Below are positions 37,134 through 47,321 of a DNA stretch of 64,000 nt, in pieces (positions within the stretch are counted from its first letter, which is position 1; each line of letters starts with the position of its first letter). The stretch lies in NCBI GenBank assembly GCA_035506195.1, contig DATJPV010000023.1, positions 1,050-65,049 of the forward strand, read 5' to 3'. Origin of the DNA: Patescibacteria group bacterium. Its GTDB lineage: Bacteria; Omnitrophota; Gorgyraeia; Gygaellales; Profunditerraquicolaceae. The notes under the pieces are model-generated. The model was given only the letters and a program-made list of their open reading frames with translations. It searched no databases and had not been told where the DNA came from. A program made the position numbers and the translations under genes.

Positions 37134-37760
37134 TTAGTTTGCCGACACCGATGGCATGCGAATGCGCGAAAAAAGCCTGATGCTCGGATTTTTGGGGCTA
37201 CCGCACGCATCAGGGTTACCGTCCGGATCCCAGCAGGCGGTTACCTGTATTTCCAGCGTATCCGCAGACGGATTCAAAACATATGTCGGCTGAGCCGGAT
37301 CGTTGCCAAAATCAGGGCTGATCTTTTTTTGAGTAATCACCTCATATACGCCCGGGGCGGTAGTAAGGTCCGGATAATACCAGACTTCGTAATTCGGCGC
37401 GGACCGGTAACGATAGGCGATCTGCCTGTCGGCAGGAGAGGCATCCCTGCGGCCATTACCGTTATAATCGATCCATACGGTCATCGTCGTGTCTCCGCCG
37501 ATGGTGGTCATTGCTATCGGAGGGTTGATCGTATCCCCTATCGCTCCGCCCCTGTCGCTTGAACCTACGATACTGCGGGTTATGTGCCCTACCAAAAATG
37601 AAGCCTCCTGCTGCACCTGGGCGCGCCGCATCGAAATGAGCAGATGACCGTAGCAAAAGCTATCGATCATCGCAAAAGCGCCGACAATGATCGACATCAG
37701 AACCAGACTTATGATAAGCTCGATAAGCGTAAGGGATTTAAGGTGTCGGAGGGGGCTCAT
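37134..37760 (-). CDS. minor (pseudo)pilin, prepilin-type N-terminus
   Basis: 208 aa starting MSPLRHLKS/LTLIELIISLVLMSIIV. It has a class III signal-like leader with Glu at +5 but Ser at -1. It is the last gene of the pilin cluster. Confidence 0.75.
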   Translation of the reverse strand: MSPLRHLKSLTLIELIISLVLMSIIVGAFAMIDSFCYGHLLISMRRAQVQQEASFLVGHITRSIVGSSDRGGAIGDTINPPIAMTTIGGDTTMTVWIDYNGNGRRDASPADRQIAYRYRSAPNYEVWYYPDLTTAPGVYEVITQKKISPDFGNDPAQPTYVLNPSADTLEIQVTACWDPDGNPDACGSPKNPSIRLFSRIRMPSVSAN

Positions 37761-38103
37761 TCCACGTAATGGTAACTTTTACTTTTTTCAAGTGGGAATT
37801 CCCGACCCAGGCGCTCACATCAGCCGTACTGTATGCCGGGGTATAGGTAATGGGGGGCACCTGCAGGGCGCCCGGGCATCCGGTACCTGCGGTGAGGCAA
37901 TTACTGCCCCAGGTAGCCTGATTGACGTCTGCCTGCAAAGGGTCCAGAAAATACCTTCCCAGCTCTCCGCCGGCGCTACGGCTGCGGCTATGGAGCAGGC
38001 TGCGCCTGCCGGTTATGAAAACGCTGGACATCCCGGCGAGCACCAGCGCAAGCAATATTGCCGCTACCAATACCTCAATCAAGCTCACGGCCCTTTTACT
38101 CAT
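37738..38103 (-). CDS. minor (pseudo)pilin, prepilin-type N-terminus
   Basis: 121 aa starting MSKRA/VSLIEVLVAAILLALVLAG. Glu is at +5 and Ala at -1. Confidence 0.75.
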   Translation of the reverse strand: MSKRAVSLIEVLVAAILLALVLAGMSSVFITGRRSLLHSRSRSAGGELGRYFLDPLQADVNQATWGSNCLTAGTGCPGALQVPPITYTPAYSTADVSAWVGNSHLKKVKVTITWNEPPPTP

Positions 38104-38124
38104 ACAGAAACTTAAAAGAAGCCC

Positions 38125-38523
38125 TTACCATGACCCGTCGCAGGCATACGGCTCTTCCGTGGAAGCGCTTTGATTCGTGCACCAGACATGGTTGGTTTTC
38201 GTAACGCGCTGCGCCTTACCGATAAAGGCGTTAGGGGAAGTAGTAACGTTATCGACTTTATAATTCCATCGCGATCCCGCCTGCGGCAACATAAGGTTAA
38301 GCAGGGAGTTGACCGTAGTGTTGTCGGCGGCGGCGACATAAGCCCCGATTTCCATTTTGTAGATTCTTTCAGCCGACTGGATAAGCTTCAAATTGGCGAT
38401 GGCCTCTTTATCCAAGACAGCTTCTCGGTGCGCGGTATATTGGGCTACGCCGATAGTAGCCAAGACACCGATAATGACAAGCACTACCATTGTTTCCATT
38501 AAGGTGAAGCCCTTAATCTTCAT
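38125..38523 (-). CDS. prepilin-type N-terminal cleavage/methylation domain protein (pilin/GspG-like)
   Basis: 132 aa starting MKIKG/FTLMETMVVLVIIGVLATIGV, the canonical G/FTLxE motif. Confidence 0.88.
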   Translation of the reverse strand: MKIKGFTLMETMVVLVIIGVLATIGVAQYTAHREAVLDKEAIANLKLIQSAERIYKMEIGAYVAAADNTTVNSLLNLMLPQAGSRWNYKVDNVTTSPNAFIGKAQRVTKTNHVWCTNQSASTEEPYACDGSW

Positions 38524-38525
38524 AT

Positions 38526-38575
38526 AAAAAAATGACAGTCCTTATTGCGTGCCTACGCACGCAATAAGGACTGTC
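38526..38575 (-). terminator. strong intrinsic terminator immediately after the major pilin gene
   Basis: A perfect 19-bp stem pairs gacagtccttattgcgtgc (38534-38552) with gcacgcaataaggactgtc (38557-38575). The loop is 4 nt, and the hairpin is followed on the minus-strand RNA by AUUUUUUUA. Confidence 0.85.
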
Positions 38576-38595
38576 TCCGAGCTTGCACAAAACAA

Positions 38596-39024
38596 TTAAT
38601 AACCGCCAGATCCTCCCCACGTATCAACACCCGTGCTCAGGACCGATGTCAACTGGACGTCTCCAGCAGTTGATGCCTGCGGGAGTTTTCCACCAGCTGT
38701 ACAACGTGTTGCTACGCCGGTAACGTTTGTTGCAGCCGAAGTTACCGAATAGCTGAACCAATGCGAGGCGCGGCAAGCGCTGGGAATCTGATCGGCATTG
38801 GTACCGATATGGGCAGTAGAAGCCCCGGTTCCAAAACTGGCGGTGCTACCGAATTCCAAATAATATCCCGCCGATAGCTTCCTGATGTCGCCCAAAATAG
38901 CCTTGGCTTCTGCACCACGAGATTTCTCGATCATTCTGGCATATTGCGTGAAACCGAGGATCGCCAACACGCCCAAAATGATAATAACTACGATCAACTC
39001 GAGCAACGTAAAACCTTTTTTCAT
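38596..39024 (-). CDS. major type IV pilin / pseudopilin
   Basis: It starts MKKG/FTLLELIVVIIILGVLAILG followed by YARMIEKSRGAEAKAILGDIR, and has two Cys in the C-terminal half. I set the start at ATG 39024, which sits behind the strong SD AAGGAGGAG. The track start at 39072 adds 16 non-pilin residues. Confidence 0.9.
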   Translation of the reverse strand: MKKGFTLLELIVVIIILGVLAILGFTQYARMIEKSRGAEAKAILGDIRKLSAGYYLEFGSTASFGTGASTAHIGTNADQIPSACRASHWFSYSVTSAATNVTGVATRCTAGGKLPQASTAGDVQLTSVLSTGVDTWGGSGGY

Positions 39025-39167
39025 GTTGTCTCCTCCTTTTTTATTATTAAACCTGTGATTCATTTGATTCATTTTTTGTTTCTCGGAAAATTTTGATTTC
39101 GGTTATAGATGTGCTGCCTGTATCTATAGAGCCTGCCTTTACCACCCCCTTTCATGCTTCTGTTCAA

Positions 39168-39196
39168 ACTATATCACAAAATACCAATGCTGTCAA
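39168..39196 (-). promoter_or_regulatory. sigma70 promoter with extended -10 for the major pilin gene
   Basis: The minus strand reads TTGACA, then a 17-nt spacer ending in TGa, then TATAGT. It lies directly downstream of the pilC stop and about 140 nt upstream of the pilin ATG. Confidence 0.65.
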
Positions 39197-46372: not shown

Positions 46373-46560
46373 TGTCCTTCCCCGGGTTGCGACAGACGCC
46401 TGCGGCTCTTAAGCCAGGCATCTATATCCCGCCTGTCAAATCTCCATACTCCGCCTACTTTGATACCGGAAATTTTGCGCTGGGAAAGCCAGTTGTAGAT
46501 AGTCTGCTTGCGTAACCGCAGATAATCTGCCAACTCATCGATATCCATCAATCTCGACAT
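46369..46560 (-). CDS. excisionase/MerR-superfamily (HTH_17-like) small DNA-binding protein
   Basis: 63 aa: MDIDELADYLRLRKQTIYNWLSQRKISGIKVGGVWRFDRRDIDAWL. This is the classic Xis/AlpA-type helix-turn-helix plus wing pattern. Its stop overlaps the pilMN start (ATGA). Confidence 0.8.
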   Translation of the reverse strand: MSRLMDIDELADYLRLRKQTIYNWLSQRKISGIKVGGVWRFDRRDIDAWLKSRRRLSQPGEGQ

Positions 46561-46599
46561 GAAGCTTTACCTTTCTTTACGTAAAACACAACCGTGTTA

Positions 46600-46628
46600 A
46601 TTAGAACATAAAAGTTTACTTTTGTCAA
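46600..46628 (-). promoter_or_regulatory. sigma70 promoter (extended -10) for the HTH-pilMN...pilC operon
   Basis: The minus strand reads TTGACA, then a 17-nt spacer ending in TGt, then TCTAAT. It lies about 40 nt upstream of the HTH gene ATG. Confidence 0.55.
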
Positions 46629-46636
46629 CTATTTTT

Positions 46637-46666
46637 TTACTTAAACTTACTTAAACTTACTTAGAT
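46637..46666 (-). repeat. three tandem 10-bp direct repeats abutting the -35 element
   Basis: The plus strand reads ttacttaaac ttacttaaac ttacttagat. On the minus strand this is TAAGTAAGTT x2 plus a degenerate third copy. The period is exactly 10 bp, about one helical turn. Confidence 0.8.
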
Positions 46667-46742
46667 TTAAATTTCGTTATTATAACTAATTGCAACTATA
46701 GATGTTAGATAGAGGCTTTTAAGGAAGGGGAAGGTTTAAATA

Positions 46743-47111
46743 TTAAAGTTGAAACTGGTAGTTGATATCGACAGTGATGACTTTGGCGTTCGGCACGCCG
46801 GAGACGGGGGTACCAATAGCGGGAGCATCGGCAATATTAATGTCTACGCGATAGGGGATATCGCTGTCATTAGCGGTACAGCCGGAAGCGCAGAGAGTAC
46901 GATTGCCTGTGCCCCAGTTCAAATACCGCAACCCATCGATTGCCAGATTTATACCGGCAATCCCTGCGTAATAGGCACGCGCTCTTTCTATGCGATGGCT
47001 GGTAATCCGGGATTGGTTGGAAACAAGGTTGGCAACAATGAATGCCAGAGTTAACACCGTTATAAGCATGGCTATTACAACCGTTAACGCCGCAGCCTTG
47101 CGAGTACGCAT
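46743..47111 (-). CDS. PilX_N/GspK-like minor pilus protein (no Glu5)
   Basis: 122 aa starting MRTRKAAALTVVIAMLITVLTLAFIVANL followed by ERARAYYAGIAGINLAIDGL. This resembles the PilX N-terminal domain pattern (hydrophobic helix, then A..AEAG-like). Recognised from memory only. Confidence 0.6.
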   Translation of the reverse strand: MRTRKAAALTVVIAMLITVLTLAFIVANLVSNQSRITSHRIERARAYYAGIAGINLAIDGLRYLNWGTGNRTLCASGCTANDSDIPYRVDINIADAPAIGTPVSGVPNAKVITVDINYQFQL

Positions 47112-47114
47112 ATG

Positions 47115-47321
47115 TCAGACGTACCTTCTCAGGCTTACCTTATAATCGGCTTCGGTTTGCTGCAGCACCACATGCCCTTCCCTGGCAAGCCACCCCAAGC
47201 TCATCAATACGGTGTCGCGCGGTTTTTCAATCCCCGAAACCAACGCTGAAAGCGTAACCTCACCGTGCTGGTCTAAAAAGTGCCAGATATCGCCTGCAAC
47301 AATACCTATCTCTGTAATCAT
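47115..47321 (-). CDS. small winged helix-turn-helix protein (DUF2582-like)
   Basis: 68 aa: IGIVAGDIWHFLDQHGEVTLSALVSGIEKPRDTVLMSLGWLAREGHVV. It matches my recollection of the DUF2582 signature (..aG.iW..L...G..s...L.......ALGWLAREgKi). The SD GGGAGG precedes the ATG. Confidence 0.65.
   Translation of the reverse strand: MITEIGIVAGDIWHFLDQHGEVTLSALVSGIEKPRDTVLMSLGWLAREGHVVLQQTEADYKVSLRRYV

What the first reader, a model, noticed from the sequence alone, without database searches (positions are those of the whole stretch)
37134..47321. Self-contained type IV filament locus with hybrid T4P/T2SS architecture
A run of co-directional genes appears to encode a complete machine. The components are:
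- an Xis-like HTH;
- a PilM::PilN fusion, PilO, and PilP (YKAEGLKDPF motif);
- a short 515-aa secretin;
- a PilB/GspE ATPase and a PilC/GspF platform protein;
- one major and three minor prepilins;
- an upstream PilX_N-like/wHTH gene pair.

The inner-membrane platform has the T2SS-style L/M/C layout, meaning a fused actin-like plus PilN-like protein. The secretin N0 domain and the PilP motif look T4P-like. The locus therefore fits neither textbook class.

No prepilin peptidase (PilD/GspO) and no PilT/PilU retraction ATPase occur anywhere in the 64 kb. The locus splits into at least four transcription units, each behind a near-consensus TTGACA-N17 promoter that I could read directly. I consider this the best candidate in the window for an undescribed surface machine (adhesion, DNA uptake or secretion) in a streamlined Gram-negative lineage.
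Basis: partly seen in the sequence, partly recalled or inferred. Interest (0 to 1): 0.72.

Follow-up and report, generated by a model that had tools for sequence, protein, structure and literature searches.

The report
Omnitrophota type IVa-like pilus locus
This is a real, nearly complete type IV pilus gene cluster that almost every member of the ultra-small candidate phylum Omnitrophota carries at the same genomic position; it is a variant of a known machine (two scaffold proteins fused, tightly conserved promoters), not a new kind of surface apparatus.

Summary
It comprises a DUF2582 wHTH, a PilX_N-like minor pilin, an excisionase-type HTH, PilM::PilN, PilO, a PilP-like HR-domain protein, a 515-aa secretin, a PilB/GspE ATPase, PilC, one major pilin and three further pilins.

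The window comes from an Omnitrophota MAG. The whole locus, with its flanking housekeeping genes, is syntenic in 80 of 80 inspected Omnitrophota species genomes (238 matched), so it is an ancestral core feature of the phylum.

By sequence and fold the parts are type IVa pilus (T4aP) parts:
- The cytoplasmic domain is PilM, not GspL.
- The secretin is PilQ-like (N0-N1-secretin).
- The pilins have short G|FTLxE leaders, and none is a GspG.

The T2SS-like traits are the M-N fusion, the secretin-E-F-pilin gene order, and an ATPase core equally close to GspE and PilB. The ATPase forms its own clade outside GspE and MshE and carries two c-di-GMP-binding MshEN motifs.

No prepilin peptidase or PilT lies in the window, so the locus is not self-contained.

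A published TXSScan survey already reports T4aP clusters across Omnitrophota. I found no description of the fusion, the single-locus layout, or the conserved promoter and GTAAG-repeat operator. Verdict: real, a new variant of a known kind, moderate interest.

The parts
47342..47370 (-). Promoter P1 (TTGACA-N17-TAAAAT) ahead of the wHTH / PilX-like pair
   Evidence: A TTGAC[ACT]-N17-TAnAAT site lies about 46 nt before the ATG in most of 64 related loci; 32 of 64 have exact TTGACA.
47115..47321 (-). 68-aa winged-helix protein (DUF2582), putative regulator
   Evidence: Pfam PF10771, E=3.4e-14. It is 59-84% identical across Omnitrophota loci and always at this position.
46743..47111 (-). 122-aa PilX_N-like minor pilin (GspK/PilX-type, no Glu at +5)
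   Evidence: The window protein has no direct Pfam hit. 10 of 56 orthologues hit PilX_N, best E 2.8e-6. The family has a KG|V(A/V)L leader, no E5 and a QAYYAA.AG motif.
46636..46662 (-). Direct repeats AAGTAAGTTT x2.5, about -43 to -69 relative to P2; candidate operator
   Evidence: AGTAAG-N4-AGTAAG occurs only here in the window, against 0.14 expected. It occurs essentially once per locus, at the same position upstream of the HTH17 gene, in 50 of 81 loci; L022 and L080 have two copies. The 8-mer AAGTAAGT is present in 61 of 70 upstream regions.
46600..46628 (-). Promoter P2 (TTGACA-N17-TCTAAT, TG-extended) ahead of HTH17-pilMN-O-P-Q-B-C
   Evidence: Read directly from sequence. The same promoter is found in 68 of 70 related loci, with consensus ACACTTGACAAAATAAG....TTATGTTyTAAT.
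46369..46560 (-). 63-aa excisionase-family HTH (HTH_17), putative regulator; its stop codon overlaps the pilMN start
   Evidence: Pfam HTH_17, E=2.2e-16. TIGR01764 scores 50.3 against a cut-off of 28.8. It is 69-86% identical across the phylum.
44801..46372 (-). PilM::PilN fusion (523 aa): actin-like PilM domain, INLL-type motif, TM helix, PilN ferredoxin-like domain
   Evidence: Pfam PilM_2 plus PilN. The AF2 model has pLDDT 87.6. Foldseek's top 10 hits are all PilM, led by the PilM:PilN1-12 chimera 5eou. Motif IDLLAAR lies at residues 316-322. Fused orthologues of 500-525 aa occur throughout Omnitrophota.
44261..44791 (-). PilO (176 aa)
   Evidence: Pfam PilO scores 34.9 bits against a cut-off of 22. 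T2SSM_b scores 17.3, below its cut-off.
43728..44264 (-). PilP-like protein (178 aa): signal/anchor, disordered linker with (K/R)DPF motif, C-terminal HR beta-domain
   Evidence: A profile of 63 orthologues finds M. xanthus PilP first in the PDB (E 0.04, RDPF aligned), then GspC HR domains. 56 of 63 orthologues hit Pfam T2SSB and 4 hit PilP. In the AF2 model the C-terminal domain has pLDDT 78-92. Foldseek's top hits are GspC HR, LspC, PilP and PulC HR, with weak E-values.
42197..43744 (-). Secretin (515 aa): N0 (STN), one N1, secretin domain; no AMIN, no N2/N3, no S-domain
   Evidence: Pfam. TIGR02515 PilQ scores 211.7 bits end to end, against GspD at 187 bits over the C-terminal part only. 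The best PDB matches are PilQ of Neisseria, Vibrio, Pseudomonas and Myxococcus.
40456..42183 (-). Extension ATPase (575 aa): two MshEN c-di-GMP motifs, N1/N2, Walker A, CxxC...CxxC
   Evidence: Pfam and NCBIfam: PilB 624 bits, GspE 611 bits, MshE-related c-di-GMP domain 61 bits against a cut-off of 38. Motifs lie at residues 10-33 and 39-62 with a 5-residue spacer. PDB comparisons are, and the tree is.
39215..40456 (-). PilC/GspF platform protein (413 aa)
   Evidence: Pfam T2SSF x2. Thermus-type PilC scores 357.7 bits and GspF 354.9. The best PDB match is M. xanthus PilC at 247 bits.
39168..39196 (-). Promoter P3 (TTGACA-N17-TATAGT, TG-extended) for the major pilin
   Evidence: An exact TTGACA-N16-18-TAnnnT lies in the PilC-pilin spacer of 21 of 37 related loci.
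38596..39024 (-). Major pilin (142 aa from ATG 39024; leader MKKG|FTLLELIVV)
   Evidence: N_methyl, E=8e-8. AGGAGG lies 7 nt before ATG 39024. The gene caller on the source contig also gives 142 aa. Leaders read M[KR][KR]G|FTL[LI]E in most related loci.
38534..38575 (-). Intrinsic terminator-like hairpin (19-bp stem plus T7) just after the major pilin stop and just before the next pilin's ATG
   Evidence: By a crude test it is not universal in relatives.
38125..38523 (-). Second pilin (132 aa, MKIKG|FTLME); GspH/FimU-like or alternative major pilin (inferred)
   Evidence: N_methyl, E=2e-6. There are only weak N-terminal GspG, ComGC and GspH hits, all below cut-off. Paralogue number varies from 2 to 6 in relatives.
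37738..38103 (-). Minor pilin (121 aa), PilV/GspI-like (inferred)
   Evidence: N_methyl, E 5e-4. There is a weak TIGR02523 PilV hit at E 4e-4. In orthologues the -1 residue is G, A or S, with E at +5.
37134..37760 (-). Minor pilin (208 aa), PilW/GspJ-like by size and position (inferred)
   Evidence: N_methyl, E 5e-4. In orthologues the -1 residue is S, A or G, followed by (V/I)TL(L/I)E.

Best explanation
The locus encodes the Omnitrophota version of a type IVa-like pilus assembly machine. It is inherited vertically as part of the phylum's core genome.

Mechanism (inferred from homology unless marked as shown):
1. A prepilin peptidase encoded elsewhere trims the short leaders (MKKG|F...) of the major pilin and of the H/I/J/K-like minor pilins. 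The minor pilins prime the filament tip.
2. The hexameric PilB-type ATPase docks under a cytoplasmic ring of PilM domains and drives the PilC platform to polymerise pilins. Its N-terminal MshEN domain carries both 24-residue c-di-GMP-binding motifs (shown).
3. PilM is covalently joined to PilN (shown), with PilN's INLL-type peptide retained (shown). PilN pairs with PilO in the periplasm.
4. The PilP-like HR-domain protein links PilN/PilO to the N0 domain of a minimal PilQ-type secretin, through which the fibre exits.

Expression runs from three conserved sigma70-type promoters (shown):
- One serves the wHTH / PilX-like pair.
- One serves the HTH17-pilMN-O-P-Q-B-C operon. It is preceded by conserved 10-bp-phased GTAAG repeats, which probably bind one of the two ultra-conserved small HTH proteins.
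- One is a strong promoter for the major pilin. The terminator that follows it would throttle read-through into the minor pilins.

The likely role is c-di-GMP-gated attachment to surfaces or host/prey cells, possibly also DNA uptake. Whether the pilus retracts is unknown.
For: Component identities come from Pfam and NCBIfam.

PDB sequence matches favour T4aP proteins:
- PilB, 498-508 bits over the full length.
- PilQ ahead of GspD.
- PilM.
- M. xanthus PilC.

Folds:
- PilM::PilN model, pLDDT 87.6. Its fold hits rank PilM far above GspL.
- PilP-like HR domain.

Other features:
- Class III signal peptides.
- MshEN motifs at 10-33 and 39-62 with a 5-residue spacer. This matches the published definition (PMC11656802) and passes NCBIfam NF053729.

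Conservation:
- 238 species genomes matched; the 80 best all share the order wHTH-PilX-HTH17-MN-O-P-Q-B-C-pilins.
- uvrA lies upstream and the AmmeMemoRadiSam genes downstream.
- Promoters and operator are conserved.

Literature: TXSScan calls T4aP in nearly all Omnitrophota, and V. archaeovorus expresses T4aP (PMC10066038).
Against: - No PilD and no PilT lie in 64 kb, nor within 10 kb either side of 80 related loci. Processing and retraction therefore rest on genes I could not see.
- On the motor core alone, V. cholerae GspE scores higher (427 bits) than Geobacter or Myxococcus PilB (404-408).
- All NCBIfam equivalog scores fall below their curated cut-offs.
- The order secretin-ATPase-platform-pilin-H-I-J is the T2SS order.
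- The major pilin is GspG-sized.
- There are no AMIN domains, no PilY1 and no pilotin.
- The PilP evidence is statistically weak (E 0.04-1).
- There is no experimental observation of the filament for this lineage beyond the proteomics cited second-hand.
Confidence: 0.7

Rival explanations
1. It is a divergent type II secretion system. A short pseudopilus made of the 142-aa pilin pushes folded exoproteins through the secretin. The fused PilM::PilN acts as GspL, PilO as GspM and the HR-domain protein as a minimal GspC.
For: - The L-like fusion.
- The gene order secretin-E-F-major pilin-H-I-J.
- The ATPase core's best solved match is EpsE/GspE, and core identity is highest to proteobacterial GspE, at 51-52%.
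- The HR domain's best fold hit is GspC bound to GspD N0, and 56 of 63 orthologues hit Pfam T2SSB.
- No PilT is nearby.
- A bona fide T2SS variant in Comamonas uses a 'PilN-domain' L protein and a full-length MshEN-bearing GspE.
Against: - No pilin hits the T2SSG domain, whereas the Comamonas control scores 126.7 bits. GspG TIGR01710 reaches only 30-45 bits against a cut-off of 88.85.
- The cytoplasmic domain is a full PilM, not the truncated GspL fold. There are no T2SSL or GspL_C hits.
- The HR-domain protein has no PDZ or coiled-coil.
- The secretin has N0 plus one N1 only and no S-domain.
- The K-like pilin is a small PilX_N type.
- The ATPases form their own 100%-supported clade outside the 87%-supported GspE clade.
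- TXSScan assigned T4aP in the phylum.
Confidence: 0.12
2. It works like an MSHA-type pilus. This would be a single-locus, T4aP-derived adhesion pilus whose extension is switched on by c-di-GMP binding to the ATPase's MshEN domain, and which has no dedicated retraction motor of its own.
For: - Both MshEN motifs are intact.
- The locus is single, and its order M/N-O-P-secretin-ATPase-platform-pilins parallels the order seen in a Legionella MSH-type locus.
- No PilT lies near any of the 80 loci.
- The literature describes MSH as single-locus and T4aP-derived with loss of PilT (PMC6668835 and PMC10191384).
Against: - No MshM (AAA) or MshN genes lie between the secretin and the ATPase; the gap there is 13 nt.
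- The secretin scores 128 bits on MshL, against a cut-off of 250 and 211 bits for PilQ.
- The ATPase lies outside the 100%-supported MshE clade and is only 43-44% identical on the core.
- MshEN domains also occur in ordinary PilB proteins.
Confidence: 0.25
3. Its main job is DNA uptake (a competence pilus), supplying nucleotides or genes to a reduced-genome organism.
For: - T4aP machines with PilQ-type secretins mediate transformation in Thermus, Neisseria and Vibrio (established knowledge).
- The best secretin matches include competence PilQ and HofQ.
- Omnitrophota are streamlined and probably host-dependent.
Against: - No comEA, comEC or dprA was recognised in the window (by eye).
- Nothing in the locus is specific to DNA uptake.
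- ComG-type models score low.
Confidence: 0.1
4. It is a horizontally acquired island, suggested by the excisionase-like HTH and an adjacent tRNA, rather than a native system.
For: An HTH_17 / excisionase-family gene lies inside the locus. A tRNA gene abuts its 3' end at 36952-37024. GC dips to 0.47-0.49 in parts of the locus.
Against: - The position between uvrA/TPR and the AmmeMemoRadiSam genes is the same in 20 of 21 full-length related loci.
- Gene order is conserved in 80 of 80 loci.
- No integrase was recognised (by eye).
- The HTH gene is translationally coupled to pilMN and 69-86% conserved across the phylum.
Confidence: 0.02

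Closest known systems
Type IVa pilus machine (Myxococcus xanthus, Pseudomonas aeruginosa, Thermus thermophilus PilB/C/M/N/O/P/Q)
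   Same: It has the same set of core parts. The best sequence and fold matches of the ATPase (full length), platform, PilM domain, PilP-like protein and secretin are to these proteins. The pilins have short-leader G|F...E5 signals.
   Different: - PilM and PilN are one polypeptide.
- Everything except PilD and PilT sits in one locus, whereas T4aP is usually multi-locus.
- The secretin lacks AMIN domains.
- There is no PilY1, no pilotin and no PilT nearby.
- The PilP-like protein appears not to be a lipoprotein.
- All equivalog scores are below their cut-offs.
[quoted passage not shown]
   Same: The topology is the same: a cytoplasmic actin-like domain, one TM helix and a periplasmic ferredoxin-like domain in one protein. 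The gene order around the ATPase is also T2SS-like.
   Different: The cytoplasmic domain here is a full-size PilM (about 305 aa) with PilN's INLL-type peptide retained. GspL cytoplasmic domains match far worse, with E 1e-9 to 1e-6 against 1e-18 for PilM. There are no T2SSL or GspL_C Pfam hits. The fusion looks like an independent event, or a less derived one.
Engineered P. aeruginosa PilM:PilN(1-12) chimera (PDB 5EOU)
   Same: It is the top structural match of the predicted protein (E 1e-18). The natural protein likewise places an INLL-type peptide C-terminal to PilM (IDLLAAR 316-322; family consensus KINLLAAK).
   Different: The natural protein continues into the complete PilN (TM helix, coiled coil and ferredoxin-like domain). 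Intramolecular docking of the peptide is inferred, not shown.
MSHA pilus (Vibrio MshE; the MSH-type locus of Legionella adelaidensis seen)
   Same: It shares a c-di-GMP-binding MshEN ATPase, a single locus, a parallel order of the shared components (M, N, O, P-like, secretin, ATPase) and no PilT.
   Different: It has no MshM or MshN. The secretin is closer to PilQ, and the ATPase lies outside the MshE clade.
'Type-4a pilus' clusters reported across Omnitrophota by TXSScan (Seymour et al. 2023, PMC10066038)
   Same: The phylum and the system class are the same. This locus is almost certainly what supplies the PilM/N/O/Q calls in that survey (inference).
   Different: The paper gives no architecture, no mention of the fusion, no pilD or pilT data and no regulatory elements. 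It stresses co-location with type 2/3 F-ATPases within 10 kb. None of the 80 loci here has an F1 alpha/beta signature within 10 kb.

Membership tests
T4aP | PilB-type extension ATPase (N-terminal N1/MshEN domains, N2, CTD with tetracysteine motif) | tested here: met
   MshEN plus T2SSE. TIGR02538 matches end to end at 624 bits, just under the 675 cut-off. Full-length matches to Geobacter and Myxococcus PilB. CPDC and CAKC motifs are present.
T4aP | PilC platform protein | tested here: met
   T2SSF x2. The best PDB match is M. xanthus PilC. PilC and GspF models score equally.
T4aP | PilM (actin-like), PilN and PilO alignment subcomplex | tested here: met
   PilM_2, PilN and PilO all pass Pfam cut-offs. 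The fold is PilM. M and N are fused, which is atypical.
T4aP | PilP (HR-domain protein bridging PilN/O to secretin N0) | tested here: inconclusive
   PilP and GspC HR domains are the top hits by profile and by fold, but with weak statistics. Pfam T2SSB hits 56 of 63 orthologues and PilP 4 of 63. The HR fold does not discriminate PilP from GspC or GspB.
T4aP | PilQ-type secretin (N0-N1-secretin, usually with AMIN domains) | tested here: met
   TIGR02515 covers positions 3-428 of 428 at 211.7 bits, below the 284 cut-off. PilQ proteins top the PDB list. No AMIN domain is detected.
T4aP | Type IVa prepilins (short leader, G-1, F+1, E+5) plus four core minor pilins | tested here: met
   Leader MKKG|FTLLEL. 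There are three further E5 pilins and one PilX_N-like pilin without E5. The H/I/J/K assignment is inferred from size and order.
T4aP | Prepilin peptidase PilD | tested here: not met
   Absent from the 64-kb window. Genome-wide presence is not testable with these tools.
T4aP | PilT/PilU retraction ATPase | tested here: not met
   No paralogue in the window or within 10 kb either side of 80 related loci. Genome-wide presence is not testable here.
T2SS | GspG major pseudopilin (T2SSG domain) | tested here: not met
   The pilins hit N_methyl only. TIGR01710 reaches 30-45 bits against a cut-off of 88.85. The positive control, Comamonas GspG, scores 126.7 bits on T2SSG.
T2SS | GspL-type protein (T2SSL/GspL_C; reduced actin-like cytoplasmic domain) | tested here: not met
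   No T2SSL or GspL_C hits. GspL cytoplasmic domains rank 16th or lower in the fold search, behind PilM and FtsA. Only the fused topology is shared.
T2SS | GspC (TM, HR domain, plus PDZ or coiled-coil) | tested here: not met
   The protein is 178 aa with a single HR-like beta-domain and no further domain.
T2SS | GspD secretin with N0-N3 and S-domain | tested here: not met
   One Secretin_N stretch only. The GspD model matches only its positions 250-593. The protein ends 42 residues after the secretin domain.
T2SS | ATPase within the GspE clade | tested here: inconclusive
   Core similarity is slightly highest to GspE. In an NJ tree (385 columns, 200 bootstraps, 10 reference extension ATPases plus a PilT outgroup) the Omnitrophota clade (100%) lies outside the GspE clade (87%), with an unresolved backbone.
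MSH pilus | MshE-type ATPase with c-di-GMP-binding MshEN | tested here: inconclusive
   The domain and both motifs are present. The ATPase lies outside the 100%-supported MshE clade.
MSH pilus | MshM and MshN accessory genes and an MshL secretin | tested here: not met
   The secretin and ATPase genes are 13 nt apart. MshL TIGR02519 scores 128 bits against a cut-off of 250. Compare the Legionella locus.
Tad (T4cP) / T4bP / Com | TadA/TadB/TadC/Flp/RcpA; BfpD/TcpT-type ATPase with long-leader pilins; ComG proteins without a secretin | tested here: not met
   TadA-family model 46 bits, ComGA 258 bits (cut-off 300) and ComGB 151 bits (cut-off 240). BfpD 125 bits and RcpA 50 bits. A secretin is present and the leaders are short.

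The most novel reading that the evidence does not exclude
The locus may define a distinct, phylum-specific branch of the type IV filament superfamily that split off near the T4aP/T2SS/MSH radiation. On this reading it keeps an ancestral single-operon layout (pilMNOP joined to the secretin-E-F-G-H-I-J order). It carries a natural PilM-PilN fusion that is an intermediate, or a parallel, on the road to GspL. It lacks a retraction ATPase genome-wide. It is controlled by its own ultra-conserved regulator-operator pair (small HTH proteins plus GTAAG repeats) and by c-di-GMP. It would be the main host/prey-attachment organelle of these nanobacteria.
Probability: 0.2. Interest if true: 0.6.

Novelty: new variant of a known kind. 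Interest (0 to 1): 0.4.

Why it matters
Omnitrophota are ubiquitous, uncultured, ultra-small bacteria suspected of predatory or parasitic lifestyles. A pilus machine fixed at one genomic position across the phylum is a strong candidate for their cell-contact organelle.

For type IV filament biology, the locus offers four things:
- A natural PilM-PilN fusion that still looks like PilM plus PilN. It bears on how GspL arose and on how PilN's N-terminal peptide regulates PilM.
- A compact one-locus T4aP-type system with a minimal secretin, which is convenient for heterologous reconstitution.
- An ATPase lineage outside the characterised GspE and MshE clades that has an intact c-di-GMP receptor domain.
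- A promoter-operator module conserved at the nucleotide level across a phylum, which gives a concrete handle on regulation in organisms that cannot be grown.

None of this overturns current understanding.

Tried and rejected
**Searches that found nothing useful**
- Seymour et al. 2023: the main text and 11 supplementary files hold no component-level T4aP data, and nothing on pilT, pilD or pilM.
- Literature searches for Velamenicoccus plus type IV pili, 'OP3 LiM', PilMN fusion, MshI/PilM and Omnitroph* plus PilT found nothing on this architecture, or on PilT/PilD in the phylum.
- phmmer of the PilP-like protein against the PDB gave no hit. The word-indexed homologue search found only 4 relatives. 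I therefore built profiles from orthologues translated from the fetched loci.
- tblastn of PilM::PilN against plasmid records gave no match.
- Rfam scans for a c-di-GMP or other riboswitch in the pilin 5' UTR found only tRNAs.

**Ideas rejected**
- F-type ATPase adjacency, as reported for Omnitrophota T4aP clusters. No F1 alpha/beta signatures occur within 10 kb of any of the 80 loci or in the window.
- A genomic island, prompted by the Xis-like HTH and the adjacent tRNA. Phylum-wide synteny with uvrA and the AmmeMemoRadiSam genes rules it out.
- The fusion as an assembly or frameshift artefact. Fused orthologues of 500-525 aa occur in hundreds of independent assemblies.
- A functional link between the ExbB-ExbD-TonB-like genes or the 822-aa TPR gene and the pilus. 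A subset of loci lacks the ExbBD block, and uvrA is just as syntenic, so adjacency reflects a conserved backbone.

**Not possible**
- Scanning whole Omnitrophota genomes for pilD and pilT.

Full report
**What is in the sequence**

In transcription order, Pfam and NCBIfam identify them as follows:
- a 68-aa DUF2582 winged-helix protein;
- a 122-aa protein with no hit of its own;
- a 63-aa HTH_17 / excisionase-family protein;
- a 523-aa protein carrying both PilM_2 and PilN;
- PilO;
- a 178-aa protein containing YKAEGLKDPF;
- a 515-aa secretin (STN/N0, one Secretin_N, Secretin);
- a 575-aa MshEN plus T2SSE ATPase;
- a 413-aa PilC/GspF;
- four prepilins with N_methyl motifs.

Most genes overlap or are separated by no more than 21 nt. 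There are only three true intergenic gaps, plus a fourth short spacer that is filled by a terminator.

Two corrections apply:
- The major pilin begins at ATG 39024, behind a perfect AGGAGG. It is 142 aa with the leader MKKG|FTLLELIVV, which agrees with the gene call on the source contig.
- There are three TTGACA-N17 promoter-like sites rather than four or more.

**Absence of PilD and PilT**

tblastn with the ATPase finds no paralogue anywhere in the window. No GxGDxK peptidase motif occurs in any frame. Of the polytopic membrane ORFs, those I scanned are DsbD_2, an STT3-like protein and a TPR membrane protein. SecDF and ExbB were identified by eye and from recorded Pfam hits. The rest of the window reads as housekeeping genes: rpoBC, ribosomal proteins, his genes, alaS, recA, uvrA and dapAB (by eye). 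The absence claim holds for the window. It also means the locus is not self-contained, because every type IV filament system needs a prepilin peptidase.

**Origin and conservation**

- The PilM::PilN protein is identical to one on an ENA metagenome contig and in an NCBI MAG labelled 'Patescibacteria group'.
- Its hundreds of homologues (46-56% identity, all 510-530 aa) are named Candidatus Omnitrophota/Omnitrophica.
- A scan of one genome per species found relatives in 238 genomes. The 80 best are all Omnitrophota MAGs, a few of them mislabelled Planctomycetales or Margulisiibacteriota.
- In every locus long enough to judge, the order is TPR-(ExbB-ExbD-TonB-like-Zn ribbon)-wHTH-PilX-like-HTH17-PilMN-PilO-PilP-secretin-ATPase-PilC-pilins(2-6)-radical SAM-Memo/AMMECR1. 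This order is kept on one strand. uvrA lies further upstream in 20 of 21 full-length loci.
- More distant fused homologues (26-33% identity) are again Omnitrophota, for example Ca. Gygaella obscura.

The locus is therefore a vertically inherited core feature of the phylum. It is not an island, despite the Xis-like gene and a tRNA at its 3' end.

**Which class does it belong to?**

Component by component, the parts are type IVa.
- *PilM::PilN.* The AlphaFold model of the fused protein is confident (pLDDT 87.6). It shows an actin-like domain (1-305), a short helix at 318-329, a TM helix, a coiled coil and a ferredoxin-like domain (427-519). Its ten best PDB fold matches are all PilM, led by the engineered PilM:PilN(1-12) chimera (E 1e-18). 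GspL cytoplasmic domains appear only from rank 16 (E 1e-9 to 1e-6), behind FtsA. The linker carries IDLLAAR at 316-322 (family consensus KINLLAAK), which corresponds to PilN's conserved N-terminal INLLP-type peptide (the motif identity is from established knowledge of PilM-PilN complexes). This is a head-to-tail pilM-pilN fusion, not a GspL orthologue.
- *PilO.* It passes Pfam's cut-off, whereas T2SSM_b does not.
- *The 178-aa protein.* A profile of 63 orthologues finds M. xanthus PilP first in the PDB, with the RDPF motif aligned (E 0.04), and then GspC HR domains. 56 of 63 orthologues hit Pfam T2SSB and 4 hit PilP. The confidently modelled C-terminal beta-domain best matches GspC-HR, LspC, PilP and PulC-HR. 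The fold is the secretin-N0-binding HR domain. There is no PDZ or coiled-coil as in GspC.
- *The secretin.* It matches the PilQ model end to end, but GspD only over its C-terminal part. Its best solved relatives are PilQ proteins. It lacks AMIN, N2/N3 and S domains.
- *The pilins.* The major pilin and its paralogue lack the T2SSG domain, although a Comamonas GspG control scores 126.7 bits.
- *The upstream 122-aa protein.* It belongs to a family in which 10 of 56 members hit PilX_N. The family has a G|V leader without Glu5 and a QAYYAA.AG motif, the hallmarks of PilX/GspK-type minor pilins.
- *The minor pilins.* The 121-aa pilin has a weak PilV hit. With the 132- and 208-aa pilins, this gives a plausible H/I/J/K priming set. 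That assignment is inferred from size and order.

**The genuinely intermediate traits**

- *The ATPase.* Full-length, it matches PilB best (498-508 bits). On the N2-CTD core alone, V. cholerae GspE scores 427 bits against 404-408 for Geobacter and Myxococcus PilB. NCBIfam gives PilB 624 and GspE 611, both below their cut-offs. The closest homologues in plasmid and chromid records are only 45% identical, and they are a clostridial PilB and a Comamonas GspE.
- *The ATPase tree.* I built a neighbour-joining tree of the core (385 columns, 200 bootstraps). The reference ATPases were taken from annotated loci: pilBCD of Acinetobacter, gspDEF of Cupriavidus, gspE-J of an E. coli plasmid, a Comamonas T2SS variant, MSH-type loci of Legionella and Aeromonas, and PilB/PilF-like genes of Allomeiothermus, Geoalkalibacter, Acaryochloris and Acetoanaerobium. 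The Omnitrophota sequences form their own 100%-supported clade, outside the GspE clade (87%) and the MshE clade (100%). The backbone is unresolved. Sampling is small and the method simple. The result says 'not nested in GspE or MshE', not 'a new class'.
- *The gene order.* pilMNOP followed by secretin-ATPase-platform-major pilin-H-I-J combines the T4aP pilMNOPQ block with the T2SS D-E-F-G-H-I-J order. For the shared components it parallels the order in an MSH-type locus. Published work holds that T4aP is paraphyletic, that T2SS and MSH derive from it with loss of PilT, that GspL equals PilM plus PilN, and that T4aP is usually multi-locus while MSH is single-locus (PMC6668835 and PMC10191384).

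**Regulation**

The ATPase N-terminus has two 24-residue motifs, KLGELLVKEGIVSEAQLEKAISVQ at 10-33 and RLGELLIKLGIVKEDKLVAVLGKQ at 39-62, separated by five residues. This is the published definition of the c-di-GMP-binding MshEN site (PMC11656802). NCBIfam's MshE-related c-di-GMP domain model is passed (61 bits against a cut-off of 38).

The three intergenic gaps each hold a near-consensus sigma70-type promoter:
- 47370-47342 (TTGACA-N17-TAAAAT);
- 46628-46600 (TTGACA-N17-TCTAAT with TG);
- 39196-39168 (TTGACA-N17-TATAGT with TG).

Only four exact TTGACA-N17-TAnnnT sites exist in 64 kb, against 0.2 expected. All three promoters recur at the same positions in related genomes: 32 of 64 exact for P1, 68 of 70 for P2 and 21 of 37 exact for P3.

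Upstream of P2, at about -43 to -69, lie 10-bp-phased direct repeats (AAGTAAGTTT x2.5, 46662-46636) followed by an A-tract. AGTAAG-N4-AGTAAG occurs nowhere else in the window (0.14 expected). In 50 of 81 loci it occurs essentially once (two loci have two copies), always at that spot upstream of the HTH17 gene.

The two small HTH proteins are 59-86% identical across species in which PilM::PilN is only 41-50% identical. One of them very probably binds these repeats; this is an inference.

A 19-bp-stem terminator follows the major pilin and abuts the next pilin's start codon. This would give a high ratio of major to minor pilin. It is not universal in relatives.

**Prior knowledge**

Seymour et al. 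2023 annotated 421 Omnitrophota genomes with TXSScan and report type-4a pilus clusters in 135 of 141 Velamenicoccia and most genomes of the other classes. They also report expression in Ca. Velamenicoccus archaeovorus and frequent co-location with type 2/3 F-ATPases. They give no architecture, and their supplementary files hold no component tables. None of the 80 loci here has an F1 alpha or beta signature within 10 kb. The F-ATPase-linked pilus genes they describe must therefore be a different locus or locus fragment. I found no paper describing the PilM-PilN fusion, the operator, or the pilD/pilT status of the phylum.

**Verdict**

- It is a real, nearly complete type IV filament machine in a streamlined lineage, with some features that sit between textbook T4aP and T2SS.
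- Its parts are T4aP parts. It is not self-contained, and the existence of T4aP clusters in this phylum is already published.

The most likely function is a c-di-GMP-gated adhesion or contact pilus (confidence 0.7). A T2SS-like secretion role is the main rival (0.12). An MSH-like mode without retraction is a compatible sub-hypothesis (0.25).

I rate it a new variant of a known kind, interest 0.4. The most novel reading not excluded is a distinct deep branch of the superfamily with its own regulator-operator module and no retraction motor. I give that a probability of about 0.2.

Noticed in passing
window 46600-46662 (minus strand); same position in L002-L081: The promoter plus GTAAG direct-repeat element upstream of the HTH17-pilMN operon is conserved at the nucleotide level across Omnitrophota species whose proteins are only 40-50% identical. 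The consensus is AAGTAAGTyTrAGTAAG...AAAAAACACTTGACAAAATAAG....TTATGTTyTAAT. The repeat occurs essentially once per locus, always at this spot upstream of HTH17.
   Followed up: yes
window 47400-47621 (minus strand): A 73-aa protein has an N-terminal TM helix and a C-terminal CxxC...CxxC zinc ribbon. It has no family hit above threshold. It is 56-76% conserved and always lies between the TonB-like gene and the wHTH gene in loci that carry ExbBD.
   Followed up: partly
window 47626-51770 (minus strand): A Tol/Ton-like block sits directly upstream of the pilus locus: an 822-aa signal-peptide TPR protein (YfiO/TPR_6-like), ExbB, ExbD and a 227-aa TonB/TolA-like protein with no family hit. A subset of Omnitrophota (for example L020, L029, L043, L048) lacks ExbB-ExbD-TonB-Zn ribbon here but keeps the TPR gene next to the wHTH gene.
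   Followed up: partly
window 34371-36936 (minus strand): An AmmeMemoRadiSam system lies immediately downstream. Its B (Memo) and A (AMMECR1) components are fused in one 505-aa protein, next to the radical SAM partner (TIGR04336, TIGR04335 and TIGR04337 all pass their cut-offs). It is syntenic with the pilus locus in many relatives.
   Followed up: partly
window 36952-37024 (minus strand): A tRNA gene lies between the last minor pilin gene and the radical SAM gene. Two more tRNAs lie at 11737-11807 and 12115-12187.
   Followed up: no
window 60721-63291 and 54595-56418 (minus strand): An 856-aa STT3-type oligosaccharyltransferase homologue (PF02516, E 7.7e-24) and a 607-aa polytopic membrane protein with C-terminal TPRs are present. 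An STT3/PglB-like enzyme could glycosylate surface proteins such as pilins. This was not examined.
   Followed up: no
source record: The taxonomy labels are inconsistent. The NCBI MAG holding this contig is named 'Patescibacteria group bacterium'. Several species-representative genomes with the same locus are labelled 'uncultured Planctomycetales' or 'Margulisiibacteriota'. All close homologues are Omnitrophota.
   Followed up: partly
L002-L081, 10 kb either side of pilMN: No F1-ATPase alpha or beta Walker signatures occur near any of the 80 loci. The literature reports type 2/3 F-ATPases within 10 kb of Omnitrophota T4aP clusters. This implies a second pilus-related locus elsewhere in those genomes, possibly where pilT or pilD reside.
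   Followed up: partly
L084 (Comamonas odontotermitis plasmid NZ_CP083452.1, 301539-309482): This is a T2SS variant with the order gspE-F-G-H-I-J-K. It is followed by a 438-aa 'PilN domain-containing' L-type protein and gspM. Its GspE is full length (579 aa) with an MshEN-family N-domain and is 45% identical to the window ATPase. It shows that PilN-like L proteins also exist in bona fide T2SS of cultured bacteria.
   Followed up: partly
window 12332-12360 and 31684-31712 (minus strand): These are the only other exact TTGACA-N17-TAnnnT sites in the window. Both are intergenic and on the coding strand; the second lies just upstream of recA. This organism evidently uses near-consensus sigma70 promoters sparingly.
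   Followed up: no
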